A DNA stretch of 64,000 nt from Acetothermia bacterium 64_32 (GCA_001508155.1 LGFI01000006.1:35157-99156), one strand, 5' to 3'; numbered from the stretch's first letter, positions 7,815 to 50,952 are shown. Numbers and translations are program-made. The notes: a model not told the origin generated them from the sequence alone.

Positions 7815-9062
7815 ATGTACAAGGGAAGGGGTTTTCTTCTCTTAACGTTCGGGATTCTTTCGATGGTCTTTCCGATTTTGGCCCAGGGAACACAGCGGGG
7901 TTTTGAGTTCTACACGCAATATCCGGCGTTGGTGATCTCCGAGGGGCGGGAGGTCTCCTTGGATGTCAAGCTCCATAACACCGGGCCTACCCCGGAGGAC
8001 GTGGTGCTTACGGTCTCCGGGCCGGAGGACTGGAACGGACGATTTGAGACCTCATCTTACCCCACTCTTCAGATAAGATCGGTACATCTCCTTCCCGGGC
8101 AGGAGGAGCCGCTCACGGTGCGGTTCAAGGCCAAGCCCCCGGAGGGCACCCCTGGTGGCGACTACGTCTTCACCTTGAGTGCCGTCACGGAGGATGGTGC
8201 CATCGAGCATTCCATCCAGGTGACCGTTACCCTGGAGGCGGAGGCCCCTCAGGAAGAGGAGGAGCCCGGGGAGGTGCTTCAGCTCCTTGTGGACTATCCC
8301 TCCCTGGAGAACGCGGCCGGAAAGGACTTCACCTTTACCATCCAGATCAAGAACCAGACCGACGAGGAGAAGGTGGTGGAGCTGTCCGGGCAGATCCCCT
8401 CCGGCTGGCGAGCCTACTTCACGCCACGCTGGGAGCAGGATACCCGCATCACCTCCATCAAGGTGGATGCCAACAGCACGGAGAACATCCGGTTTGTTCT
8501 GACCCCTCCTTACATGGTGCAAAAGGGCGACTACCCCATCCGGTTCATCGCCCGGGCCGGGGATTACGAGGCCGCCTTGGACCTGAAGGCGGTGGTCACC
8601 GGGAACTATGACCTGCAACTTGCCAGTGAGGCGGAGATCACCGGGGCCGGGGACACCTGGAACATCAAGGCGGTGGAGGGGAAAGAGCGGCACTTCACCC
8701 TTTATCTTTACAACGGCCTTCCCTCCAACCCCACCTCAGCCCCGGTGACGAACATCAGGTTCTACGCCACCAAGCCGGAGGGTTGGGAGGTGGAGTTCAA
8801 GCCTGAGACGGTGGAGTCCTTGCCGCCCACCCTCAGTGCCGCGGACCTGGCCAAGGTGGACGTGGTCATCACCCCGCCGGAGCGGGCCATCCCCGGGGAC
8901 TATCAGATCACCATTAACGCCTCCGGCCGGGAGGACCACGCCTCGGCCCAGCTGCGGGTGACCGTTGGTGCTTCCATGGGCTGGGGCTGGGTCGGGGTGG
9001 GGGTGGTGGTGTTCGTGGTGGCCGCCCTCACCGGGGTGTTCGTCCGCCTGGGGAGGAGGTAA
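7815..9062 (+). CDS. Secreted repeat protein with C-terminal TM anchor (NEW3/NPCBM-associated-like domains), ABC-2-transporter associated
   Basis: Signal peptide [25 protein letters not shown]. Repeated segments of ~100 aa. C-terminal hydrophobic anchor [16 protein letters not shown]. It is the first gene of an operon with an ABC ATPase and permease. A GGAGGTG RBS lies before the ATG at 7815. Confidence 0.55.
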
Positions 9063-37957: not shown

Positions 37958-38377
37958 CTAGGGGCGAGCCTCGCCGAAGGTTTCCTCCAGCCAGCGGGCG
38001 ATCCCGTCCCTGACGCGCCGGAAGGCGGCTAGGCGCTCTTCCTCCGTCCCCTCGGCGGCCGCCGGGTCGGGGAAGCCGGCGTGGAGGTACTCCTTGGCCC
38101 CGGGGAAGAAGGGGCAGGTCTCTTTGGCGTGGTCGCATACGGTGACCACGTAGTCGAACTCCTGTCCCAGGAACTCTTCGATGGATTTGGAGTGCTGGTG
38201 GGAGATGTCGATCCCCAGCTCGGCCATGACTTTGATTGCCAGGGGATGGACCCCGGTGGGCTTGATCCCGGCGCTTTTGGCCTCGAAGCGGTCGCCGTAG
38301 CGGGCGTTCACGAGACCCTCAGCCATCTGGGAGCGGGCCGAGTTATGAGTACAGATGAAAAGCACCTTCTTCTTCAC
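37958..38377 (-). CDS. arsC: Arsenate reductase (thioredoxin-coupled, LMW-PTP type)
   Basis: CTHNSARSQMAE P-loop. Confidence 0.9.
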   Translation of the reverse strand: MKKKVLFICTHNSARSQMAEGLVNARYGDRFEAKSAGIKPTGVHPLAIKVMAELGIDISHQHSKSIEEFLGQEFDYVVTVCDHAKETCPFFPGAKEYLHAGFPDPAAAEGTEEERLAAFRRVRDGIARWLEETFGEARP

Positions 38378-39444
38378 ACTCTCCCCTCTGCTGGAGCGGA
38401 AAAACGGGCGAACCAGGGTTTGGTCCTGTTGGCGATCCAGACCAGGGTGAGCATGATGGGGACCTCCTCTAGCACCCCCACCACCGTGGAAAGGGCCGCC
38501 CCGGACTCAAGGCCAAAAAGGGAGATCGCCACCGCCACGGCGAGCTCGAAGAAGTTGGAGGCCCCGATCTGGGCCGCCGGCGCCGCCACGGGATGCGGGA
38601 CCTTAAGGAGCCACGCCGCCCCGTACCCCAACGCGAAGATTAAGAAGGTCTGGATGGCCAGGGGCACCGCGATGAGGAAGATGTGGGCCGGGTTCTGGAT
38701 GATCTTCTCCCCCTGGTAGGAGAAGAGGATCACCAGGGTAAGGAGAAGCCCACCGATGGTCACCGGCCGCAGCCTGCGCAGAAAGATGCTCTCGAACCAC
38801 TCCTCCCCCCGCCGGGAGATGAAGTAGCGGCGGGTAGCGTACCCCAGCGCCAGGGGGATCACCACGTAAAGGACCACCGAAAGGAGCACCGTATCGTAAG
38901 GGACGTAGATCCGTGAGAGCCCCAAAAGCCCCTTCACGATGGGGGCATAGAGGAGGATCAGGACGAGATCGTTCACCGAAACCTGGATCAGGGTGTAGGC
39001 CGGATCGCCCCGGGAAAGATAACTCCACACGAACACCATGGCGGTACAGGGCGCGGCCCCCAGGAGCACTGCCCCGGCGTAGTACTCCCGGGCAAGCTCG
39101 GGTGGGATCCAGTGCTTGAAGAGGACGAACAGGAAGAGTGCCGAGATCCCGGCCATGGTGAAGGGCTTTATCGCCCAGTTCACGGTAAGGGTGAGGGCGA
39201 GGCCCTTGGGGCGTTTCCCCGCCTCCACGATCCGGGAGAACTCGATCTGGGCCATCATGGGGTAGATCATGAGCCAGATGAGGATCGCCACCGGGATGGA
39301 GACGTGGGCCACCTCCGCCTTCTTGAGGGCGGCGGGGAAGGCCGGGAACAGCCAGCCGATCCCGATCCCGACGAGGATGCAGAGGGCAACCCAAACGGAA
39401 AGGTACCGCTCGAACGTGGAAAGGCCTTTCTCCTTCTCCATCAT
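38374..39444 (-). CDS. acr3: Arsenite efflux transporter ACR3
   Basis: Ten-TM ACR3-family architecture. Confidence 0.9.
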   Translation of the reverse strand: MMEKEKGLSTFERYLSVWVALCILVGIGIGWLFPAFPAALKKAEVAHVSIPVAILIWLMIYPMMAQIEFSRIVEAGKRPKGLALTLTVNWAIKPFTMAGISALFLFVLFKHWIPPELAREYYAGAVLLGAAPCTAMVFVWSYLSRGDPAYTLIQVSVNDLVLILLYAPIVKGLLGLSRIYVPYDTVLLSVVLYVVIPLALGYATRRYFISRRGEEWFESIFLRRLRPVTIGGLLLTLVILFSYQGEKIIQNPAHIFLIAVPLAIQTFLIFALGYGAAWLLKVPHPVAAPAAQIGASNFFELAVAVAISLFGLESGAALSTVVGVLEEVPIMLTLVWIANRTKPWFARFSAPAEGRV

Positions 39445-39839
39445 CTACCTCCACGGGGGCCGATGACGCACACCCCTCCCTTTCGCTTCTTCATGCGCTC
39501 CTTAAGGCGCGCGAGGTCATCCGGGTGCGGGGAGAGGAAGGGCCTGAGTGCCTCGATGAGATCGGAGGGCACCGGCTCGTAATAAACCCAGGGGCCTTTG
39601 TGTTCGCCCTTGACGAAACCGACGGCCTTAAGGGCGGAGAGGTGCCGGGAGACCTTGTATTCAGGGAGGCTCAAAGCATCGGCGATCTCGCACACGCACA
39701 CTGGCTTTCCCACGGCAAGAAGGAGCGTCATGATCCGCACACGCATGGGACTTCCCAGCGCCTTTAGCCGCATCGCAAGGGCCTTTTGCACCATTTTGCA
39801 GTTGCATTTTACAGCAAATACCTCCGGTGTAAAGGCCAC
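39441..39839 (-). CDS. arsR: ArsR/SmtB family transcriptional repressor
   Basis: Winged HTH with the CVCEI metalloid-binding motif. Confidence 0.85.
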   Translation of the reverse strand: MAFTPEVFAVKCNCKMVQKALAMRLKALGSPMRVRIMTLLLAVGKPVCVCEIADALSLPEYKVSRHLSALKAVGFVKGEHKGPWVYYEPVPSDLIEALRPFLSPHPDDLARLKERMKKRKGGVCVIGPRGGR

Positions 39840-39876: not shown

Positions 39877-41046
39877 TCAATCCGCCGCTTGGGACAGCGC
39901 GGCCCGGGCTTCCTCTACCATGGCAGCGAGGTTCACGAACCTGACCTTGACCCCCTGTATCGTCCGACTATAGGGCTCTGCCACATCGCTTGTTACCACG
40001 TAGCAGCGGGCGTTTGGGTAGCGGCGCACCAGGGCCTTGAGCCCTTGGGGCGAAAAGGCGTCGGCCTTCCACTTGGCCTCGATGGCGATGATCGCACCCC
40101 TCCGGAGGGGGATCACGAAATCCACCTCGTGCCCCTTCTTGTCGCGCCAGTACCTGATATCCCGCGTTTCCAGTTTCGCCTGAAGCTCGTTCAGCACGAA
40201 ATGCTCCCATAGGTATCCATAATCATCCGGCCTGAGGCTTACCCAACCCCGAAAATAGCAGACGAAACCCGTGTCAAACGCGTATACCTTGGGCGCGGCC
40301 ACGATCTCGCTAGGACGGTGGGTACTGTAGGGACGGATCACATGGGCCACGTAAGTGGCCTCAAGCACGGATAAGTAGTTGGAGATCGTGGTCCGACTCA
40401 CCTCACACGGGCGCGCGAACCGTGTGGCTTCGAAGATCCCCCCGCTGGTGGCGAAAAGGAGCTCCATAAACCGGAGAAAGGAATAACGACGTTCCAGCCG
40501 GAAAAGTTCCAAGATGTCTTTCGCCCAAAAGGCATCCATCCACTCCTGGAAATCGCGCTCCGGGAGCTCAGCGGCCAAGAAGAACGGGGGCAACCCCCCA
40601 TGCAGGAATCGGTGGGAGAGGTCCGTGTTGCCGAAGTCCCGCAAGTCGTCAGTGATCATCGGGGTTAGCCATACCTCGGCCTTCCTGCCGGTCAAGGTGT
40701 CGCGGAACCTGGCGGAAGCGCCCAGGAACGACGAGCCGGTGGCTAGGATCCGCACGTCCGGATAGTGGTCGGCAGCGATCTTCAGGATCTCTGATGGGTT
40801 GGGCAGGCGATGGATCTCATCCAAGATTACGCGCTGCCCCCGTCGTTCCGCCAGAAAGGCCTCCGGGTCCTCCAACAGGCGCCGCACCCGTGGGAGCTCG
40901 CAATCGAAATACTCCACATCCTTCAGGCTCAAGCTTAGGCACGTCTTTCCCACCCGCCGCACCCCCGCAAGCCACACCACTGACCGCCGCCTCCAGGCCT
41001 CCTCTACGCGCCTGATCCAATATCTCCGCGGTACCATGTGCAACAA
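39877..41046 (-). CDS. AAA+ ATPase with DUF4143 C-terminal domain
   Basis: Walker A GVRRVGKT, followed by a restriction-endonuclease-like DUF4143 region. Confidence 0.75.
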   Translation of the reverse strand: MLHMVPRRYWIRRVEEAWRRRSVVWLAGVRRVGKTCLSLSLKDVEYFDCELPRVRRLLEDPEAFLAERRGQRVILDEIHRLPNPSEILKIAADHYPDVRILATGSSFLGASARFRDTLTGRKAEVWLTPMITDDLRDFGNTDLSHRFLHGGLPPFFLAAELPERDFQEWMDAFWAKDILELFRLERRYSFLRFMELLFATSGGIFEATRFARPCEVSRTTISNYLSVLEATYVAHVIRPYSTHRPSEIVAAPKVYAFDTGFVCYFRGWVSLRPDDYGYLWEHFVLNELQAKLETRDIRYWRDKKGHEVDFVIPLRRGAIIAIEAKWKADAFSPQGLKALVRRYPNARCYVVTSDVAEPYSRTIQGVKVRFVNLAAMVEEARAALSQAAD

Positions 41047-43625: not shown

Positions 43626-44288
43626 ATGTGGAACTTTGAGCGGGGTTTGGCCAAGGTAGTGGGGATGATGCTCCACCGAGAACTTAAGGCGGGCGTGCGG
43701 GCGGTATACCTAGAGGGGAAATTCCCACCGCCGCCCTTCGTCCTCGCCATGAATCACCACTCATACTTCGACGGGCACCTCGTCTATCTCCTGTTTCGGA
43801 GTTTCGGCTTTAGGGGGAAGCTGCTCATTTCCCCGGAGAACGTGGCCGCGTTTCCCATCTTCAGGCCCCTGGGGGCGCTTGAGGCAAGCCGGGTGCGGGC
43901 CGCACTGCAGGCGCTCGGGGCGGGGGAGGTGGTGGCGGTTTTCCCCGAAGGGGATCTGCGCTGCCACGGGAAGCTCGGCGAGCTTAAGCGGGGGGCGGTT
44001 TTCTTGGCCCAAAAAGCAAGGGTCCCATTGGTCCCTTGTGCGGCCCGCCTTTTTCCACGGGGCTTTCCCCGGCCGGAGATCTATATTTGGATCGGCGATC
44101 CCGTGGATCCAGACTTAGGAGCCCTGCGTGTGGCTTTGGAGAGGATGCTTTCCGCGATGGACGAGCTCGTAGAAAAGACGCATCCCCGCGAGCCCATCCC
44201 CGGCTTTCACCCGCTTTTCACCGGCCATCGCGGCCTCGACGAGCAGATGGCTGGGATCTCCCGCGCTTTGGGGAGGTTCTTGAGGTAA
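43626..44288 (+). CDS. Lysophospholipid acyltransferase (LPLAT family)
   Basis: NHHSYFD (HxxxxD) and FPEGD motifs. Confidence 0.75.
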   Translation: MWNFERGLAKVVGMMLHRELKAGVRAVYLEGKFPPPPFVLAMNHHSYFDGHLVYLLFRSFGFRGKLLISPENVAAFPIFRPLGALEASRVRAALQALGAGEVVAVFPEGDLRCHGKLGELKRGAVFLAQKARVPLVPCAARLFPRGFPRPEIYIWIGDPVDPDLGALRVALERMLSAMDELVEKTHPREPIPGFHPLFTGHRGLDEQMAGISRALGRFLR

Positions 44289-44300
44289 CAAGTACCTTTC

Positions 44301-44864
44301 TTACCCCGATTCGATGTTGGGAGATTGATCTATTGGCACGAACTTTTCCCACTCATACCCGTTCCGCTTCAGGATCGACCTGATTTCTTCCAGTGTGGGC
44401 TCGGGCAAGGTGGGGGAGCGGCTCAGGATCCAGCCATACTTTCTCTTCGGCTCGCCCACCACGGCCCAGGAGTAGTCGGGCCCCAAAGCCAGGATCCAGT
44501 AGTTCCCTGGGAAAAGCCAGTGCCCAAGGAACTTGAAGAAGCTCACCCTGAGCTTCCCCGGCTCTTTGGGGTTCGGGACCCAAGCACGGCCGCGGGCGAC
44601 TTTTTTCTCGCCACGGGCGTTGAAGCACTCGTTGACTACCTCGATTGTGCCATCGGGAAGGAGGGTGTAAGTGGCGGTGGTCCCTGACTTACAGCCCCGC
44701 TCGAACCAGGTGGGGATGTGGGCGATAGCGTACCACCTGCCCACGTAGTGCTCGAGATCCACTTTTTCCACGACTTCTGGCAAGGAAGTCGGCCGCTCAA
44801 CCATTGCCACCAGGGCAATAAGCCCCACCGCAGCCAGAAAAAGCCACTCCGTGTTCGAAAGCAT
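44301..44864 (-). CDS. blc: Bacterial lipocalin (Blc-like)
   Basis: YVGRWYAIAHIP and the SWAVVGEPKRKYGWILSR lipocalin signature. Confidence 0.85.
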   Translation of the reverse strand: MLSNTEWLFLAAVGLIALVAMVERPTSLPEVVEKVDLEHYVGRWYAIAHIPTWFERGCKSGTTATYTLLPDGTIEVVNECFNARGEKKVARGRAWVPNPKEPGKLRVSFFKFLGHWLFPGNYWILALGPDYSWAVVGEPKRKYGWILSRSPTLPEPTLEEIRSILKRNGYEWEKFVPIDQSPNIESG

Positions 44865-45027
44865 CTCGCCACCTCCTCATCAATGCTTTCCGCCCCGGAG
44901 ATCCGAGCGCGGGGTCGGAAGATGTCGTTCATGTGGATTCAGTTTAGCAGATAAGCCGGCATTGACCGACTGCCAGTGGCCCCCACTCTCTATACAGCAT
45001 AGGCAAAGGGCGCCCGCCAAGAGCCGC

Positions 45028-45221
45028 ACGCTGGAGAACTGGCTCTGGAAGGCGGCCTGTGCCATCCGCAGCCCCGCCGACGTCCCGAAGTTCAAGGATT
45101 ACATCCTGCCCTGTTCTTCCAGAAGTGGCTTTCCGATGTGTTAGACGATGAGGCGGCCCGCCGGGTCGCCCCGACCACCCACGCTGGATTGACCCTTGAC
45201 CGCTCTCTAACCGCCATTTAA
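45028..45221 (+). pseudogene. N-terminal remnant of a type I R-M methyltransferase subunit (HsdM_N-like), frameshifted and truncated
   Basis: LENWLWKAACAIRSPADVPKFKDYILP, then after a -1 shift LFFQKWLSDVLDDEAA, matches the HsdM N-terminal pattern LWKAADxLRG...[22 protein letters not shown]. No MTase core follows. Confidence 0.4.
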
Positions 45222-45256
45222 ACTGGTCTGAGACTGGTCCATAAGAGGTGAAGAGG

Positions 45257-45493
45257 ATGGAAGAGATTGGAGCTTATGAGGCCAAGGCGCAGTTTTCCGA
45301 GCTCCTACGGCGTGTGGAGAAGGGTGAACGGTTCGTGATTACCCGACATGGGGTTCCCGTGGCCGTTTTGGGACCTGTCTCACCCCGTCACCGGGACGTC
45401 AGGGAAGTGATCAGGGCCCTAAAGGAATTCCGGAAAAAACACACCCTGGGCGGTTTGAAGATCAAAGACCTGATAGAGGAAGGACGCATGTGA
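45257..45493 (+). CDS. vapB: Type II antitoxin VapB (Phd/YefM-like)
   Basis: AYEAKAQFSELLRRVEKGERFVITRHGVPVAVL. 4-nt overlap with vapC. Confidence 0.8.
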   Translation: MEEIGAYEAKAQFSELLRRVEKGERFVITRHGVPVAVLGPVSPRHRDVREVIRALKEFRKKHTLGGLKIKDLIEEGRM

Positions 45494-45924
45494 TGAAACG
45501 GGTTCTGTTTGTGCTAGACGCATCAGTGGCCCTGGCCTGGGGGTTAGAGGACGAAAGTAACCCATATACCGATGCGGCTCTGGATGCGCTGGAACACGGA
45601 GAAGCACTCGTTCCATCTATCTGGCCGCTGGAAGTCAGTAATGCCCTTCTGATGGCGGAGCGGAGGGAGCGCATCTCCCAGGCCATGGTAGCGGAATTTC
45701 TGGAGTACCTTCGATCATTGCCCATCGTTGTGGAGCAATCCGGTCCGGAACAGATCTTCGGGGAAGTGCTCCTTCTGGCGCGCGAACAGGGCCTCTCCGT
45801 CTATGACGCGGCCTATCTGGACCTTGCCCTTCGCCGCGGACTTCCTTTGGCCACACAGGACCGGGCCCTTAGGACCGCCGCCTTCAGGATGGGCGTTGAG
45901 ATCTTCGGCCCGCAGGAGGGATGA
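45490..45924 (+). CDS. vapC: PIN-domain ribonuclease toxin VapC
   Basis: PIN acidic residues (VLDASV, D..YDAAYLDLA, ATQD). Confidence 0.85.
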   Translation: MMKRVLFVLDASVALAWGLEDESNPYTDAALDALEHGEALVPSIWPLEVSNALLMAERRERISQAMVAEFLEYLRSLPIVVEQSGPEQIFGEVLLLAREQGLSVYDAAYLDLALRRGLPLATQDRALRTAAFRMGVEIFGPQEG

Positions 45925-46122
45925 TGGAACTCCGTCGCGCAGGGTCTGCCGGAGCCCGAGTTTCAGAACCAGGGGTGGCCTTCTGGTCACTTTAGCCAAG
46001 GACCCCCTACACGCCGGAGGGTTTGTGGCGCGGGGGCTCAGCGAACGCAGATCCGAAAGTAGGGAGGGCCTTTTGTTGCCGAAAGTGAGAGGGGATTCGG
46101 GGAACAGAAAGGGGCAAGAGGC

Positions 46123-46422
46123 ATGATGGGAAAAATTGAGTTGCCCGAGGCGGAAATTGCGGCGTTTTGCCGTCGCTATAAGGTGCGGAGGCTTTCCCTT
46201 TTTGGCTCCGTACTGCGGGAGGATTTCGGTCCTAAGAGCGATATCGATATGCTTGTGGAATTCGAGCCCGGAGCACAGGTGGGTTTCTTGACCCTCAGCC
46301 GCATGGCACGGGAACTTTCCACCATCCTGGGCCGTCCGGTGGACCTCGTGCCGAGGAGCGGCCTCAAACCGGCAATCCGCGACGCCATACTGAAAGAAGA
46401 GCACGTTATTTATGCGACCTGA
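46123..46422 (+). CDS. mntA: Nucleotidyltransferase antitoxin MntA
   Basis: GSVLREDFGPKSDIDMLVEF. Confidence 0.85.
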   Translation: MMGKIELPEAEIAAFCRRYKVRRLSLFGSVLREDFGPKSDIDMLVEFEPGAQVGFLTLSRMARELSTILGRPVDLVPRSGLKPAIRDAILKEEHVIYAT

Positions 46423-46756
46423 GCGGCTGTATCTGCTGGACATCATAGAAGCAGCCGATGCCATCGCTCGCTTCCTCACCGATGTGGATGAGGGAACTTT
46501 CATGCAGGACGAATTAAGGCAAAGCGCGGTGCTGCACAAGCTTATTGTCATAGGTGAGGATGCGGCCCGTTTGCCCGCCGAATTCAAGGAGCAACATCCG
46601 GAGATCCCATGGTCGGACATTGTGGCTTTTCGTAACATTGCGGTTCATGCGTATTTCTCGGTCGACTGGCGAATTGTCTGGGTAACAGCCACGCAGGAAG
46701 TGCCTGAATTGCGCCGCCAGATCGCTTTACTGCTAGAGGACCTTGGCGATGAATGA
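46412..46756 (+). CDS. hepT: HEPN-domain toxin HepT (DUF86)
   Basis: Rx4HxY motif RNIAVHAY. Overlaps mntA. Confidence 0.85.
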   Translation: MRPERLYLLDIIEAADAIARFLTDVDEGTFMQDELRQSAVLHKLIVIGEDAARLPAEFKEQHPEIPWSDIVAFRNIAVHAYFSVDWRIVWVTATQEVPELRRQIALLLEDLGDE

Positions 46757-46940
46757 GGTGAAAAACGTATCGCACGATGACTACCGCATGACCGAACTCG
46801 GCCCCCTGCTCGAAGAGTAGCAGGTGGTGAGGTTATTGAAGCCATTAAAACCAGTCTGTGGTGGAAAACACTTGACCATGCAAAAGAACGCCTGCGTGCG
46901 GTCCTAGCGCGCAAAGCAACGCGCTGATTTCCAGGAGCGT

Positions 46941-47168
46941 GTGCGGGCTAAGGAAGAAGTTCTAGCCCGATATCAGGCGATCTTCTCTCCGGATCATATC
47001 TCCCACCTTACTGAAGAGGCGTTTCGTTCCTTTCTTTACTTCGAAAACAACAAGCATTGGACCGGTTTGTACCGCCAGGCGAACCGGCTTACCGCAGATA
47101 TGGAGGCGTTACGGGGTGCGCTTGCTATCCTGGTGGATGCATACGATTTTGGAAAAGGTGCTTTATAG
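46941..47168 (+). CDS. Orphan small ORF or gene fragment (motif LTEEAFRSFLYFENNKHWTGL)
   Basis: 75-aa GTG-initiated ORF in the lower-GC part of the island. It is preceded by an in-frame-looking fragment ...EVIEAIKTSLWWKTLDHAKERLRAVLARKATR*. The family is unknown to me. Confidence 0.3.
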   Translation: MRAKEEVLARYQAIFSPDHISHLTEEAFRSFLYFENNKHWTGLYRQANRLTADMEALRGALAILVDAYDFGKGAL

Positions 47169-47173
47169 AGCTG

Positions 47174-47211
47174 ATGTTCACGATTAAGCTATGTTCACGC
47201 ATCGTGAACGT
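47174..47211 (+). promoter_or_regulatory. Candidate operator: ATGTTCACG at 47174 and 47191 as direct repeats, plus inverted CGTGAACGT at 47203
   Basis: Read directly. It lies about 170 bp upstream of the AbiEi-like ORF. Confidence 0.3.
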
Positions 47212-47381
47212 CCAAAAATAGTGACCAATGGATAAAAAAGGATTTTAGACGGCTGTCTGTGGGCACTCTGTGGCCGGTTGAGGCTTGAAATCTCCCCTAT
47301 CCCGGTGGAAGAGCAGGTTAGCCCAGTCCGCCCGGATGCAGTGGTACGACTGACCCTCCCGAGCGGGAAAACTATCGACGT

Positions 47382-48275
47382 GTGGTTGAAGTCAAAGCCC
47401 GACTCCGGCCATCTACGGTCCCTGAGATCCGACCCAGCTCGCCACTTACAAGGAACAGGCAGGCTGCAGTGCTAGTCGCTGCGCCCTACGTCCCGGAGAC
47501 GCTAGCTCAAAAGCTTCGTGATCAGGGGCTTTGGTTCGTGGGCAGTCTGGGCAATGCATACATTGAAATGCCAGGGGAAATACTGATCTACACTACCGGA
47601 AAACGACCGGCTCGCTGGCAGCCCCCAAACGCATCTTGGATGAGCGCACAGGGTGCCAAGGTCCTATTTCAGCTTCTCATCCTCGGCTCCAGAGTCCACG
47701 CCACCTATCGCGACATTGTCCGAAACACTGGTGTGTCGCTCGGAATGGTTTCCAAAATCATCACGAGCCTCCTCGGAAGAGGAGTAATCAGCCCTCGTGC
47801 CCGGGGCGTCTACGAGATCGTAGAGCCCCACCGACTCTTGGAGATGTGGAGTGACGCTTACGCGCTCAAGTTGCGGCCGAAGATCTCGCTGGGACGGTTC
47901 CGATCGCTGTACGGCGCGGACTTCGCCAGGATGTTCAAGGAGACGAGCAAAGCCGAGATGAAAAGTGTGGTCATTGGTGGAGAATATGCAGCGGACAAGC
48001 TGACCGGGTACCTGCGGGCCGGCTTGGTGAGCCTTTATGTGCCCCCAGATCGTGTCCGGGCCGTGCTAGGGGTGTTGAGGCTGGCCCCCTCATCGGAGGG
48101 GAACATAGAACTGTACGAGGCATTCGCTAAACGGCTCACGATGCCCCGCTCCAGAAAATGGCCACCCCTCGCACATCCAGTCCTTGTATACGCCGAGCTT
48201 TTGGCCACCGACGATCCCCGCTGCGGGGAGGCAGCCCGCAGGCTAAAGGAAAGGTATCTACCATGGATCCAGTAA
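47382..48275 (+). CDS. AbiEi-like putative type IV antitoxin / wHTH regulator
   Basis: wHTH segment GVSLGMVSKIITSLLGRGVISPRARGVYEIV. It overlaps the start of a downstream AbiEii-like NTase remnant, as abiEi/abiEii genes do. The ORF-track start is GTG at 47382; an alternative in-frame ATG lies at 47640. Confidence 0.45.
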   Translation: MVEVKARLRPSTVPEIRPSSPLTRNRQAAVLVAAPYVPETLAQKLRDQGLWFVGSLGNAYIEMPGEILIYTTGKRPARWQPPNASWMSAQGAKVLFQLLILGSRVHATYRDIVRNTGVSLGMVSKIITSLLGRGVISPRARGVYEIVEPHRLLEMWSDAYALKLRPKISLGRFRSLYGADFARMFKETSKAEMKSVVIGGEYAADKLTGYLRAGLVSLYVPPDRVRAVLGVLRLAPSSEGNIELYEAFAKRLTMPRSRKWPPLAHPVLVYAELLATDDPRCGEAARRLKERYLPWIQ

Positions 48276-49045
48276 ACGCCTTGAGCCGCATATTGTCGCG
48301 GCTCTATGCCATGTTACAAACGCGCTTACCCGATCTCGGCTTCCCTACGCGTTGATCGGGGCGAACGCATTGATCCTTCAGGGAGTGAAGTTAAGCCGTT
48401 CAACGCGTGACCTCGACTTCGTGATGGCTCTCCACCGCGGATTGGATTCTGAAACGGGCCGGAATGCGCTCTTCCAGTATCCCTCATCGCTTTTACACGG
48501 AGTCAGGGGTTGAGCTGGATGTGCTACCACTGGATCCGCCAGCGGAACGTCAACAAGAGATCCACTTTCCGAATGGAGAAAGGATTTCCGCCATTGGACT
48601 TGCCGAAGCCCTGCGATGGTCCTCGGAGATCAACGTTGGGTAGTGCATCGTCCGTGTGGCCAAGTTACCCGTTTTAGTCGCCCTGAAGCTCCACGCTGCA
48701 ACGCACCGGGTTGGAGAGCAAGACCTCCGGGATGCCTTCACTGCGATGCAGCAATACGCCAGCGAAGGGGAGCGGCGGTTCCTCGAAGTAAATTATGAAA
48801 CACACCCCGAGCTCGAGTACGAGGCCGCAGGCGCGTTCCTCCTCGCTCGCGACCTGCACAAACACGCTGACGAGTCAAGACTAATCCACATCCGGGCAGA
48901 CGTGGAGACACTCCTCGCGGATGAAGGCATGAGCAGCCAACGAGAACTTGGCCTTCGCTTTGATCCACTCCTCCGTGCTTTTCGGTTGGGCCTGGAAGAA
49001 AGTCTTTTCAATGTCCGGCTACAAGTCCCCCACCTGCAAGCCTAG
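48264..49045 (+). pseudogene. AbiEii-like (DUF1814) nucleotidyltransferase toxin gene, multiply disrupted
   Basis: Pieces: ...LPDLGFP, then after a -1 shift YALIGANALILQGVKLSRSTRDLDFVMAL, a stop, ...TESGVELDVLPLD..., a stop, IVRVAKLPVLVALKLHAATHRVGEQDLRD... The pieces are separated by a frameshift and in-frame TGA and TAG. Confidence 0.5.
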
Positions 49046-49288
49046 GATCTCCAAGACATCGACTGCGTGGGCGCAGCCAAGGCAGGCCAGTTGTGGCCGC
49101 GTTCGAGTTTGCCCGCCGCTTCTTCCAACGGGCAAAGAGGGAGATCACCCGGCAGCTTGCTGAAGCAGGGAAAATCCCGGGGATTGAGCCTTCAGACCAC
49201 CTCATCGTTACCCGGGGAGGTTGGCTTTCCCTCCGGCGCGAAGGACACCTCTAACTTGTGTCGTGGCATTCCTGGCTTCCGGGCTACC

Positions 49289-49338
49289 TTGACGTAGTAG
49301 GGTGGGCCTTTTATCATAATATTGCAAAGTTGTGCAAT
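49289..49338 (+). promoter_or_regulatory. Promoter and candidate ArsR operator of the second ars-type operon
   Basis: TTGACG, a 17-nt spacer, TATCAT/CATAAT, then the inverted repeat ATTGCAAAGTTGTGCAAT at 49321-49338. RBS AGGAGG lies before the ATG at 49355. Confidence 0.5.
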
Positions 49339-49354
49339 AAAGCAAGGAGGCTGA

Positions 49355-49642
49355 ATGGACAAAGACTTCCTAATCGCGAGCGTGGCCAAGGCGCTGGCGA
49401 GCCCGGTGAGGGTCCGGATCCTCAAAATCCTGGAGGAGGGGGAGCGGTGTGGATGTGAGCTTGTGCCGCTCCTTTCGCTCGATCCCTCGGTGGTCTCACG
49501 GCACCTCTCGGTCCTCGCCCGGGCGGGGCTGGTGGAGTCCCGCCGGGACGGGGTCAGGATCCTCTGGCGACTTTCCAGCCCCGAGATTTCCCGGCTCCTT
49601 CGGTGTCTTGAAAGCCTGGCCTGCGAAAAGGAGGCCGTATGA
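49355..49642 (+). CDS. arsR: ArsR/SmtB family repressor (CxC type)
   Basis: ERCGCELVPLL corresponds to the ELCVCDL metalloid site. Confidence 0.85.
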   Translation: MDKDFLIASVAKALASPVRVRILKILEEGERCGCELVPLLSLDPSVVSRHLSVLARAGLVESRRDGVRILWRLSSPEISRLLRCLESLACEKEAV

Positions 49643-50952
49643 GCCGGAACCTCAAGCTCTTCGCCTGGATCGCGGGGACGTTCCTCTTCGCCTACTTCGT
49701 CCCCTTCTCCCACCCCAAGGTCCAAAAGGCGCTCACCGAGGCGTTCCTCATGCTTCAGGAGTACGCGCGAGAGCATGTCCTCACCTGCCTTGTTCCCGCC
49801 TTCTTCATCGCCGGGGCGATCTCGGTCTTCATCTCGCAGGCGGCGGTGATCCGGTATCTGGGGTATCGGGCGAAGAAGGTCCTGGCCTACGGGGTGGCCT
49901 CGGTTTCGGGGACGATCCTTGCCGTGTGCTCCTGCACCGTCTTGCCCCTCTTCGCCGGGATCTACAAGCGCGGGGCAGGGCTCGGGCCGGCCATCGCCTT
50001 CCTCTACTCGGGGCCGGCGATCAACATCCTCGCCATCATCCTCACAGCCAGGGTCCTGGGGGCCTCTCTCGGCCTTGCCCGGGCGGTCGGAGCGGTCCTC
50101 TTTTCCGTCGTCATCGGCCTCTTAATGCACCTAATCTTCCGCAAAGAGGAACGTGAAAAGGCCGAGGCGGCCCTGGCAATGCCCGAGCCCGAGCGCCCGA
50201 AGCGTCCCCTATGGAAGACGGCGGTGCTTTTTGCCCTGATGATCGCGGTGCTTGTGTTCGCCAACTGGGGGCGGCCGAGCTCGGTGACCCTGCACCTTTC
50301 TGACGGCACGGTCATCACCGGGATCCGCGCCGGGGAGGAGGCCGATGCCATCCTCGTGAAGCTTCCCGATACCGGGGAGATGCTGCACGTGGCCAAGGCC
50401 GAGATCGTTTCCACCGAATACGCCCAAAGCGCCTACACGACGCTTTGGCGCTACCGGTTTGCGGTGGCGGGCGTCTTCCTCCTCGTCCTCCTTTCTCTCC
50501 TTCCCGCCTGGATGGAGCGAGAGGAGGGGAAGGCCTGGCTACATTCCACCTGGGATTACGCGGTGATGATCCTTCCCTATCTCTTCGGGGGGGTGCTTGT
50601 GGCCGGGTTCCTTTTGGGCCGTCCGGGGTCAGAGGCCCTGATCCCGGCCCGCTGGATCCAGGTCGCAGTGGGAGGCAATTCCTGGGCGGCGTGCGCCATC
50701 GCGTCGGTGGCCGGGGCCCTCATGTACTTTGCCACCCTCACCGAGGTCCCGATCCTTCAGGGCCTCATCGGAGCGGGGATGGGTCCGGGGCCGGCTTTGG
50801 CGCTGCTCCTCGCGGGCCCTGCCCTTTCCCTTCCCAATATGCTCGTCATCCGCAGGATCCTGGGGACCAAGAAGACCTTGGCCTACGTGACCCTGGTGGT
50901 GATCGCCGCCACCCTGACCGGAAAGCTCTACGGGACGGTGGTGGGACCATGA
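49639..50952 (+). CDS. DUF318-type permease, ArsP-like (CSC motif)
   Basis: Two permease halves. VCSCTVLPLF resembles the ArsP TPFcSCS motif. A ~90-aa soluble insert lies between the halves. Confidence 0.65.
   Translation: MSRNLKLFAWIAGTFLFAYFVPFSHPKVQKALTEAFLMLQEYAREHVLTCLVPAFFIAGAISVFISQAAVIRYLGYRAKKVLAYGVASVSGTILAVCSCTVLPLFAGIYKRGAGLGPAIAFLYSGPAINILAIILTARVLGASLGLARAVGAVLFSVVIGLLMHLIFRKEEREKAEAALAMPEPERPKRPLWKTAVLFALMIAVLVFANWGRPSSVTLHLSDGTVITGIRAGEEADAILVKLPDTGEMLHVAKAEIVSTEYAQSAYTTLWRYRFAVAGVFLLVLLSLLPAWMEREEGKAWLHSTWDYAVMILPYLFGGVLVAGFLLGRPGSEALIPARWIQVAVGGNSWAACAIASVAGALMYFATLTEVPILQGLIGAGMGPGPALALLLAGPALSLPNMLVIRRILGTKKTLAYVTLVVIAATLTGKLYGTVVGP

What the first reader, a model, noticed from the sequence alone, without database searches (positions are those of the whole stretch)
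44865..49350. Decayed defence island: hsdM remnant followed by VapBC, HepT/MntA, orphan fragments and an inactivated AbiE-like module
In ~4.5 kb, with patches of lower GC, there are four elements. First, a frameshifted N-terminal fragment of a type I R-M methylase. Second, two apparently intact toxin-antitoxin pairs, VapB/VapC and MntA/HepT. Third, orphan ORF fragments at 46760-47168, and a fragment at 49067-49260 translating to VAAFEFARRFFQRAKREITRQLAEAGKIPGIEPSDHLIVTRGGWLSLRREGHL. Fourth, an AbiEi-like gene whose partner AbiEii-like nucleotidyltransferase is broken in at least three places. TA and Abi modules embedded in hsd loci are a known architecture. Here the R-M core has been lost and only the addiction and abortive-infection parts are partly retained.
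Basis: partly seen in the sequence, partly recalled or inferred. Interest (0 to 1): 0.7.

Follow-up and report, generated by a model that had tools for sequence, protein, structure and literature searches.

The report
Decayed restriction-modification island with surviving toxin-antitoxins
This 4.5-kb stretch of an uncultured Acetothermia (Bipolaricaulota) genome is the wreck of a type I restriction-modification operon and its passenger defence genes, where only two toxin-antitoxin pairs remain intact; it is a clear but ordinary case of defence-island decay.

Summary
Between a lipocalin gene (44301-44864, -) and arsR (49355), all on the + strand, lie:
- an hsdM remnant: the 5' ~55 codons, frameshifted, joined to the last ~12 codons
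- intact Phd/YefM-PIN (VapBC)
- intact MntA-HepT with both signature motifs
- a 19-codon hsdS 5' remnant with TGG->TAG
- the N-terminal ~90 codons of a restriction-type protein
- an AbiEi_2/AbiEii pair
- the 3' end of the native radC gene

Both AbiE genes are dead. AbiEi has four frame-breaking deletions. AbiEii has two, plus a nonsense codon.

The island is identical in the window and four independently assembled contigs, so the lesions are not assembly errors. Sister-lineage contigs (~80% identical flanks) carry different hsdM pieces, orthologous vapBC (dN/dS 0.05-0.08), a longer hsdS remnant and an intact radC at the same site. This shows decay in place.

TA modules embedded in type I R-M loci are well known. 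Interest is low.

The parts
45019..45221 (+). hsdM pseudogene. The 5' ~55 codons (one frameshift near 45113, no start codon left) are joined to the last ~12 codons. The stop TAA is at 45219-45221. About 1.4 kb of the gene has been deleted.
   Evidence: The repaired reading matches Pfam HsdM_N at 1.3e-7 (32.7 bits) and PADLOC MTase_I at 3.6e-19. It is 65-78% identical to HsdM N-termini. The 3' end and stop align with the hsdM stop of relatives L065-L070.
45257..45493 (+). vapB: an intact Phd/YefM-family antitoxin of 78 aa (an alternative GTG start lies at 45248). A promoter-like site lies at 45196-45224.
   Evidence: Pfam PhdYeFM_antitox 2.7e-11 and NCBIfam phd_fam 4.4e-12. The orthologue in L065 is 82% identical, with dN/dS 0.05. 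Promoter scan.
45493..45924 (+). vapC: an intact PIN-domain toxin of 143 aa. Its start overlaps the vapB stop (ATGTGATG).
   Evidence: Pfam PIN 1.5e-10, covering profile positions 2-119 of 120. The orthologue in L065 is 76% identical in global alignment (tblastn local 79%), with dN/dS 0.08.
45921..46100 (+). Remnant of the C-terminal third of a HATPase_c_4 (AlbA_2-type 'ATP-binding protein') gene, read across at least three frames.
   Evidence: tblastn against the Rhodothermus plasmid ATP-binding protein, residues 137-207; that protein is HATPase_c_4 at 1.3e-23. The stretch is 75% nt identical to a longer remnant in L067/L070, which matches the same protein at 2.6e-28.
46123..46422 (+). mntA: an intact minimal nucleotidyltransferase antitoxin of 99 aa, with GSX10DXD at residue 28.
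   Evidence: Pfam NTP_transf_2 8.9e-16, NCBIfam MntA_antitoxin 1.2e-12, PADLOC PDC-S09 6e-31. Motif.
46412..46756 (+). hepT: an intact HEPN RNase toxin of 114 aa, with RX4HXY at residues 74-81. It overlaps mntA by 11 nt.
   Evidence: Pfam HepT-like 1.5e-27, covering profile positions 1-118 of 120. Motif.
46783..46840 (+). hsdS 5' remnant: 19 codons reading MTELGPLLEE*QVVRL, with TGG->TAG.
   Evidence: It aligns at ~80-85% nt identity with L065/L066/L067. The longer L067 remnant matches PADLOC Specificity_I at 1e-11, profile positions 6-69 of 392.
46875..47168 (+). N-terminal ~90 codons of a restriction-type protein. The effector part is deleted, there is an in-frame stop at about 46905, and a 75-aa ORF remains at 46941-47168.
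   Evidence: It is 50% identical to residues 5-96 of a Paracoccus NucS_C-domain protein encoded between hsdM and hsdS. The same domain heads 497 representative protein clusters, including McrB-like AAA_5 proteins and an HsdM fusion.
47228..48275 (+). abiEi (AbiEi_2 type) pseudogene. The ATG at 47228 runs into TAG at 47246. There are 1-nt deletions after 47384 and 47430, a 5-nt deletion after 47472 and an in-frame 3-nt deletion after 47941. The longest remaining ORF is 47382-48275.
   Evidence: Pfam AbiEi_2 2.8e-23. Intact homologues are 351-352 aa. Supported by tblastn across three frames and a DNA alignment with L005.
48265..49045 (+). abiEii-like nucleotidyltransferase pseudogene. The start overlaps the abiEi stop. 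There is a 1-nt deletion after 48276, a 14-nt deletion after 48446, and CGG->TAG at 48641-48643.
   Evidence: There are 31 homologues, and the intact ones are 250-263 aa. Alignment with L005. Of 27 homologues, 21 match PF08843; the family profile matches PDB 8an4, an AbiEii/AbiGii toxin, at 0.0019.
49076..49254 (+). radC remnant: a mid-gene piece at 49076-49132 and the last ~38 codons at 49140-49254. This is the native gene next to arsR, truncated in this lineage.
   Evidence: NCBIfam RadC 6.6e-10 and Pfam RadC 27.6 bits. The relatives L065 and L066 carry radC at this position: L065 has the intact 221-aa gene beside arsR, and in L066 the contig ends after codon 131.

Best explanation
The region is what remains of a chromosomal type I restriction-modification operon. 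That operon lay between the lipocalin gene and radC/arsR in an ancestor of this Acetothermia lineage.

Like many hsd loci, it had collected passenger genes between its subunit genes:
- vapBC
- an AlbA_2/HATPase_c_4 gene
- mntA-hepT
- a restriction-type protein with a conserved N-terminal domain
- an AbiE module

The R-M genes and most passengers were then destroyed in place:
- A ~1.4-kb internal deletion plus a frameshift hit hsdM.
- hsdS was truncated to 19 codons and carries a nonsense codon.
- hsdR was lost completely.
- Seven small frame-breaking deletions or nonsense changes hit abiEi and abiEii.
- A deletion took the 5' two-thirds of the neighbouring radC.

Only the two small toxin-antitoxin pairs are still whole.

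Inferred mechanism of the survivors, from family knowledge and not shown here:
- VapC is a PIN-domain RNase. It is held inactive by direct binding of the Phd/YefM-type VapB, which also represses the operon.
- HepT is an RX4HXY HEPN RNase. MntA inactivates it by adding AMP to the motif tyrosine (Y81 here).

The TA pairs probably persist because losing the labile or enzymatic antitoxin releases a stable toxin. Deletions that remove them are therefore counter-selected, whereas loss of the R-M and Abi functions is tolerated. They may also still contribute to abortive-infection-type phage defence.
For: Shown:
- The identity of each piece is established by HMM or homology.
- Exact lesions come from alignment with intact AbiE modules L005/L006.
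- Two contigs match the window exactly over 34301-54864. Two more match over the ~5.3 kb they cover, apart from one mismatch at 44169, outside the island. The four come from different samples.
- Sister-lineage contigs L065-L070 carry, at the same site, complementary hsdM remnants, orthologous vapBC, a longer HATPase_c_4 remnant, an hsdS 5' remnant and an intact radC.
- vapB and vapC have dN/dS of 0.05 and 0.08 against L065, which indicates purifying selection.
- MntA has GSX10DXD and HepT has RX4HXY. These are the motifs shown to mediate poly-AMPylation in PMC7641770.
- The same architecture occurs elsewhere. L062 is a fragmented type I locus with embedded MntA/HepT and AlbA_2-HATPase_c_4. DarTG2 is embedded in an E. 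coli type I system, and the hsdS-hsdR gap has been proposed as a hotspot (PMC12255303).
Against: - No hsdR remnant was found in the window or in the relatives, so a complete three-subunit system in the ancestor is inferred, not shown.
- mntA-hepT, the N-terminal-domain fragment and the AbiE module are absent from the relatives. They may have arrived after the R-M genes decayed, rather than being original passengers.
- No genome with an intact operon at this site was found. The genome-contig scan returned only 48-49% identical lipocalins, and L016 showed no synteny beyond the acyltransferase gene.
- Activity and expression of the TA pairs were not tested.
- dS for vapBC is saturated (1.8-2.5), so the dN/dS values are approximate.
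Confidence: 0.85

Rival explanations
1. This is a recombination hotspot that received already-truncated fragments from several donors, through illegitimate recombination or partial transfers. It is not one operon that decayed in place.
For: Cargo between vapBC and radC differs completely between the window and L065/L066, which carry an ATPase_2-like gene plus an AAA_14/DUF4143 gene. GC varies from piece to piece, 0.51-0.64. vapBC has a dS three to five times that of flanking genes, which could reflect allelic exchange. The closest intact AbiE module is only ~83% nt identical and sits in an unrelated context.
Against: The hsdM 5' end in the window and the hsdM middle and 3' parts in the relatives sit at the same position, and the stop codons and the hsdM-vapB junction align. 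The hsdS 5' remnant and the HATPase_c_4 remnant are shared at 75-85% nt identity. All pieces lie on one strand in operon-like order. No integrase, IS element, tRNA or flanking repeat was found.
Confidence: 0.1
2. The frameshifts are sequencing or assembly errors, or reversible phase variation at short runs, and the AbiE and hsdM genes are functional in the cell.
For: Two of the lesions lie in A-runs right after start codons: A6 at 47234-47239 and AAA at 48274-48276.
Against: The same sequence, lesions included, occurs in four other assembled contigs from different samples. The lesions include 5-nt and 14-nt deletions, a nonsense codon that needs two substitutions, a ~1.4-kb hsdM deletion and wholesale truncations. 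No single slip could restore function.
Confidence: 0.02
3. The remaining 268-297-codon abiEi ORF still makes a useful protein containing the wHTH and the AbiEi_2 C-terminal domain. It would act as an orphan regulator, so the module is only half dead.
For: A long ORF persists at 47382-48275 and keeps the full Pfam AbiEi_2 match. dN/dS against L005 is 0.17.
Against: The native start and the first ~80 codons are destroyed by four indels. The ORF begins at GTG, and no promoter-like site was found upstream. The low pairwise dN/dS mostly reflects divergence that accumulated while both copies were functional. The toxin it would neutralise is dead.
Confidence: 0.1

Closest known systems
Type I R-M operons with embedded defence or TA genes, for example the E. 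coli RRDM island with DarTG2 between hsdS and hsdR (PMC12255303), and 'guilt-by-embedding' loci
   Same: The hsdM and hsdS genes have TA, Abi and nuclease-type genes interleaved on one strand. The passenger families are the usual ones: HEPN/MNT, AlbA_2-HATPase_c_4, PIN and AbiE.
   Different: Here the R-M core is dead (hsdM and hsdS are remnants, hsdR is absent), most passengers are pseudogenes, and no RptR-like regulator was seen.
HepT/MntA type VII toxin-antitoxin of Shewanella oneidensis (PMC7641770)
   Same: The antitoxin gene is upstream and overlaps the toxin gene. MntA has GSX10DXD and HepT has RX4HXY. The proteins are about 100 and 115 aa.
   Different: It scores below the NCBIfam equivalog cutoffs (47.6 and 37 bits against 60), so it is a divergent member. 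AMPylation was not tested.
VapBC type II toxin-antitoxin with a Phd/YefM-type antitoxin
   Same: A PIN toxin with full-length domain coverage, a small upstream antitoxin with overlapping stop and start, and strong purifying selection.
   Different: The RNA target is unknown. The antitoxin is of the Phd/YefM rather than the AbrB or MazE fold class.
AbiE (AbiEi/AbiEii) type IV TA / abortive-infection system (PMC3985639) and the MenT DUF1814 toxins (PMC7450476, PMC10435456)
   Same: A bicistronic, overlapping pair: a wHTH antitoxin with a C-terminal AbiEi domain, followed by a DUF1814-type nucleotidyltransferase with the RDLD motif.
   Different: The antitoxin is of the AbiEi_2 (PF09952) type, and about 100 N-terminal residues have no Pfam match. 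The toxin family is small (31 clusters) and only marginally matches PF08843. Both genes are pseudogenes here.

Membership tests
Type I R-M methyltransferase HsdM | HsdM_N domain at the N-terminus | tested here: met
   After repair of one frameshift, Pfam HsdM_N scores 32.7 bits (cutoff 24.5), covering only profile positions 1-44 of 135. PADLOC MTase_I scores 3.6e-19.
Type I R-M methyltransferase HsdM | N6_Mtase catalytic domain and an uninterrupted reading frame | tested here: not met
   There is no N6_Mtase sequence in the window. The remnant jumps from about codon 55 to the last ~12 codons. The relatives keep N6_Mtase pieces.
Type I R-M system (hsdMSR) | hsdS and hsdR partner genes present | tested here: not met
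   hsdS is a 19-codon remnant with a stop codon. No hsdR similarity was found with two HsdR queries.
VapBC (PIN toxin with antitoxin) | Full PIN domain with conserved acidic residues, and an upstream overlapping antitoxin gene | tested here: met
   PIN 1.5e-10 over profile positions 2-119 of 120; Phd/YefM 2.7e-11; overlapping stop and start. The acidic residues (D9, E47, D105 and D122 in the 143-aa reading) were seen by eye in the sequence and not checked against a structure.
VapBC (PIN toxin with antitoxin) | Toxicity of VapC and its neutralisation by VapB | not testable with these tools
   This needs expression assays. Only purifying selection (dN/dS 0.05-0.08) speaks for function.
HepT/MntA type VII TA | RX4HXY in the HEPN toxin and GSX10DXD in the adjacent MNT antitoxin | tested here: met
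   RNIAVHAY at HepT residues 74-81 and GSVLREDFGPKSDID at MntA residues 28-42. The motifs are as defined in PMC7641770.
HepT/MntA type VII TA | Scores above the NCBIfam equivalog cutoffs (NF047751, NF047752) | tested here: not met
   37.0 and 47.6 bits against cutoffs of 60. The Pfam HepT-like and NTP_transf_2 cutoffs are passed.
AbiE type IV TA / Abi | AbiEi-family antitoxin domain | tested here: met
   PF09952 AbiEi_2 at 2.8e-23 (83.3 bits, cutoff 21) on the remaining ORF.
AbiE type IV TA / Abi | DUF1814/AbiEii nucleotidyltransferase partner | tested here: inconclusive
   The repaired pseudogene gives no Pfam hit and only 0.013 against PADLOC AbiEii. Its closest intact homologue, P0001, passes PF08843 (25 bits, cutoff 22.5). 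Of 27 homologues, 21 match PF08843, and the family profile hits PDB 8an4 at 0.0019.
AbiE type IV TA / Abi | Both reading frames intact | tested here: not met
   There are four frame-breaking lesions in abiEi and three in abiEii, relative to L005/L006.
RadC (UPF0758_N + JAB) | Full-length gene with UPF0758_N and JAB domains | tested here: not met
   Only RadC profile positions 83-120 of 121 remain (27.6 bits). The L065 orthologue is an intact 221-aa gene.

The most novel reading that the evidence does not exclude
The ~65-residue domain encoded at 46941-47138 may belong to an undescribed, promiscuous N-terminal module of restriction-type proteins.

- It has no Pfam, NCBIfam or PADLOC model.
- It heads about 500 representative protein clusters.
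- These have very different effector parts: McrB-like AAA_5 GTPases, an EVE fusion, a 1216-aa HsdM fusion, NucS_C/PD-(D/E)xK nucleases and Ymh-type proteins.

It could be a shared sensing or partner-binding domain. In this window it is only a dead remnant, so the locus itself would still be ordinary.
Probability: 0.3. Interest if true: 0.35.

Novelty: new member of a known kind. Interest (0 to 1): 0.2.

Why it matters
It is a well-resolved natural example of how defence islands die. In two sister lineages of an uncultured phylum the same type I R-M operon was eroded by different deletions. The small toxin-antitoxin passengers stayed intact, and vapBC, the pair shared by both lineages, is under purifying selection. 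This fits the view that addiction modules outlive the systems they ride with. In practical terms, the locus should not be scored as an R-M or AbiE system. It should be scored as two TA pairs plus pseudogenes. radC should be recorded as lost in this population. None of this changes current understanding.

Tried and rejected
- The exact look-up of the 297-aa abiEi ORF found nothing, because gene callers use 268- or 211-aa starts.
- The genome-contig scan with the lipocalin returned only 48-49% identical, non-syntenic hits.
- The metagenome scan with the acyltransferase gave one 71% relative (L016) whose synteny stops at that gene.
- The word-indexed search with the hsdM fragment returned only short HsdM_N fragments, so no full-length closest HsdM could be chosen. 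Their contexts were still informative.
- The word-indexed search with the 46941 fragment found only three proteins. The exhaustive representative search was needed.
- Searches for hsdR, hsdS-body or hsdM-body remnants in the window with Paracoccus and L063 proteins were negative.
- No tRNA, IS element, integrase or meaningful repeat marks the borders.
- The long antisense ORFs (45715-46638, 49192-49776 and others) have no family match and were treated as GC-driven artefacts.
- The 270-aa gene upstream of abiEi in L007-L010 was tested as a source of the 46790-47168 fragment and rejected. It matches only the wHTH of abiEi.
- A PD-(D/E)xK reading of the AbiEi_2 N-terminus (D...EVK in L005) was dropped because the EVK is VVR in L007.

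Full report
**Source and reliability**

The window comes from Acetothermia bacterium 64_32 (Candidatus Bipolaricaulota). Proteins encoded here are identical to KUK270xx and HAF706xx entries. The window matches NCBI DMDO01000013.1 and JGI Ga0136451_100000049 exactly over 34301-54864. Two Logan contigs from other runs differ only at 44169, outside the region. All the lesions described below are therefore reproduced in independent assemblies.

**Anatomy**

All elements lie on the + strand, between a lipocalin gene (44301-44864, -) and arsR (49355-49642).

1. **hsdM remnant, 45019-45221.**
   - One frameshift near 45113 splits '...TLENWLWKAACAIRSPADVPKFKDYILP' from 'LFFQKWLSDVLDDE...'.
   - When repaired, it passes Pfam HsdM_N (32.7 bits) and PADLOC MTase_I (3.6e-19). 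It is 65-78% identical to HsdM N-termini.
   - The reading ends at TAA 45219-45221. In a DNA alignment this stop coincides with the hsdM stop of the relatives. The gene therefore lost about 1.4 kb internally.
2. **vapB (45257-45493, Phd/YefM) and vapC (45493-45924, PIN).** Both are intact and overlap. A promoter-like site lies at 45196-45224.
3. **HATPase_c_4 remnant, 45921-46100.**
   - It matches a Rhodothermus plasmid protein.
   - It is 75% nt identical to a longer remnant in L067/L070.
4. **mntA (46123-46422) and hepT (46412-46756).** Both are intact. They carry GSX10DXD and RX4HXY.
5. **hsdS 5' remnant, 46783-46840.** It reads 'MTELGPLLEE*QVVRL' and is shared with L065-L067. The L067 copy matches PADLOC Specificity_I at 1e-11.
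6. **N-terminal domain fragment, 46875-47138** (ORF to 47168).
   - This is the N-terminal ~90 codons of a restriction-type protein.
   - It is 50% identical to a Paracoccus NucS_C-domain protein encoded between hsdM and hsdS.
   - An exhaustive search shows that the same ~65-residue domain heads about 500 protein clusters. These include McrB-like AAA_5 proteins, an EVE fusion and a 1216-aa HsdM fusion. No Pfam model covers it.
   - Other plasmid examples are not inside hsd operons.
7. **abiEi, 47228-48275, and**
8. **abiEii, 48265-49045** (see the next section).
9. **radC remnant, 49076-49254**.

**The AbiE module is dead in both genes**

- The repaired nucleotidyltransferase has 31 homologues. 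Intact ones are 250-263 aa, and the best is 73% identical.
- Intact modules (L005-L010) pair it with a 351-352-aa AbiEi_2 protein whose stop overlaps the toxin's start.
- Alignment with L005/L006 (83% nt identity) locates the lesions.
  - abiEi: the start frame is lost (ATG 47228 runs into TAG 47246). There are 1-nt deletions after 47384 and 47430, a 5-nt deletion after 47472, and an in-frame 3-nt deletion after 47941.
  - abiEii: a 1-nt deletion after 48276, a 14-nt deletion after 48446, and CGG->TAG at 48641-48643.
- The family is AbiEii-like. Of 27 homologues, 21 match PF08843, and the profile matches PDB 8an4. The pseudogene itself does not reach any Pfam threshold.

**Comparative evidence for decay in place**

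Contigs L065-L070 come from a sister lineage. Their flanks are ~80% nt identical, and the lipocalin is 87% aa identical. They are syntenic on both sides. Between the lipocalin gene and arsR they carry:

- hsdM pieces that the window lacks, namely the start of the N6_Mtase domain (the 'GEFYTP' stretch, profile positions 7-39) and the last ~95 codons. Both pass the N6_Mtase cutoff.
- vapBC orthologues (82% and 76% aa identity)
- a RAYT-like pseudogene or a longer HATPase_c_4 remnant
- the hsdS 5' remnant
- two ATPase genes
- an intact 221-aa radC next to arsR

From this I conclude:

- hsdM-vapBC-(HATPase_c_4)-hsdS was present in the common ancestor and was eroded differently in each lineage.
- The window's 'VAAFEF...' fragment is the tail of the native radC, truncated here.
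- vapB and vapC have dN/dS of 0.05 and 0.08, so they are under purifying selection. Their dS (1.8-2.5, saturated) exceeds that of flanking genes (0.4-1.0).
- mntA-hepT, the N-terminal-domain fragment and AbiE are absent from the relatives, so their time of arrival is open.
- No hsdR trace was found.

**Mechanism**

The living parts are two TA pairs.

- From family knowledge, VapC is a PIN RNase neutralised by binding of VapB.
- HepT is a HEPN RNase. MntA silences it by adding AMP to the tyrosine of RX4HXY, as shown for Shewanella (PMC7641770).
- Their survival amid general decay fits addiction: deletions that remove the antitoxin are lethal.
- All of this is inference. No expression or activity data exist.

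**Comparison with known systems and verdict**

- TA and other defence genes embedded in type I R-M operons are documented. DarTG2 sits between hsdS and hsdR in E. coli, and that site has been proposed as a recombination hotspot (PMC12255303).
- Similar decaying loci occur elsewhere. L062 has fragmented hsdM/hsdS/hsdR with embedded MntA/HepT and AlbA_2-HATPase_c_4, and L059-L061 have an orphan HsdM_N in a TA cluster.
- No mobile-element signature marks the borders.
- The finding is correct and well supported, but it is an ordinary case of defence-island decay.

Noticed in passing
window 46941-47138; proteins P0119-P0267: The ~65-residue domain in this fragment has no Pfam, NCBIfam or PADLOC model. 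It sits at residues ~30-100 of about 500 representative protein clusters with very different C-terminal parts: AAA_5 McrB-like, EVE, DUF2461, HsdM_N+N6_Mtase, Hypoth_Ymh and NucS_C.
   Followed up: partly
window 45257-45924 versus L065 7352-8022: vapBC orthologues have a synonymous divergence (dS 1.8-2.5) three to five times that of the flanking genes (0.4-1.0), although they sit at the same site. This suggests allelic replacement or an older split of the TA alleles.
   Followed up: partly
L065 (reverse complement) about 7861-8200; also in L066: The relatives carry a REP-associated tyrosine transposase-like (IS200/RAYT-type) pseudogene between vapC and the hsdS remnant ('...YFVTICTHERAPLFG...VVMPNHVHGIIW'). 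I recognised it by eye; there was no Pfam hit at E<=0.1.
   Followed up: no
L062 4560-16282: A 462-kb metagenome contig holds a heavily fragmented type I R-M locus: several HsdM_N and N6_Mtase pieces, split hsdS and split hsdR. It has embedded MntA/HepT, AlbA_2-HATPase_c_4, PDDEXK_3 and YgjP-like genes. It is a second example of the same kind of decay.
   Followed up: no
L007 8848-12707: Next to an intact AbiEi_2/AbiEii module, a Type ISP-like enzyme appears split into an N6_Mtase gene (631 aa) and a Type_ISP_C gene (435 aa), with a HEPN + nucleotidyltransferase pair inserted between them.
   Followed up: no
L005 5685-6743 and L007 6958-8013 (intact AbiEi_2 proteins); window 47228-47480: AbiEi_2-type antitoxins of this family have about 100 N-terminal residues with no Pfam match. 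L005 shows a PD...EVK pattern that is not conserved in L007. All four frame-breaking lesions of the window's abiEi fall in this part.
   Followed up: partly
window 39877-41046 (-) and 38081-39600; L065 4081-5334: An AAA_14/DUF4143 ATPase gene lies 4 kb left of the island, beside an arsR-SBF-LMWPc arsenic-type cluster. A paralogue of it in L065 matches the PADLOC candidate-defence family PDC-S01 at 2.8e-83. In the relatives that paralogue sits inside the variable region next to radC.
   Followed up: no
window 49284-49354: Upstream of arsR there is a promoter-like site (TTGACG-17-TATCAT, 49289-49317) and an inverted repeat, ATTGCAAAGTTGTGCAAT. The repeat looks like an ArsR operator.
   Followed up: no
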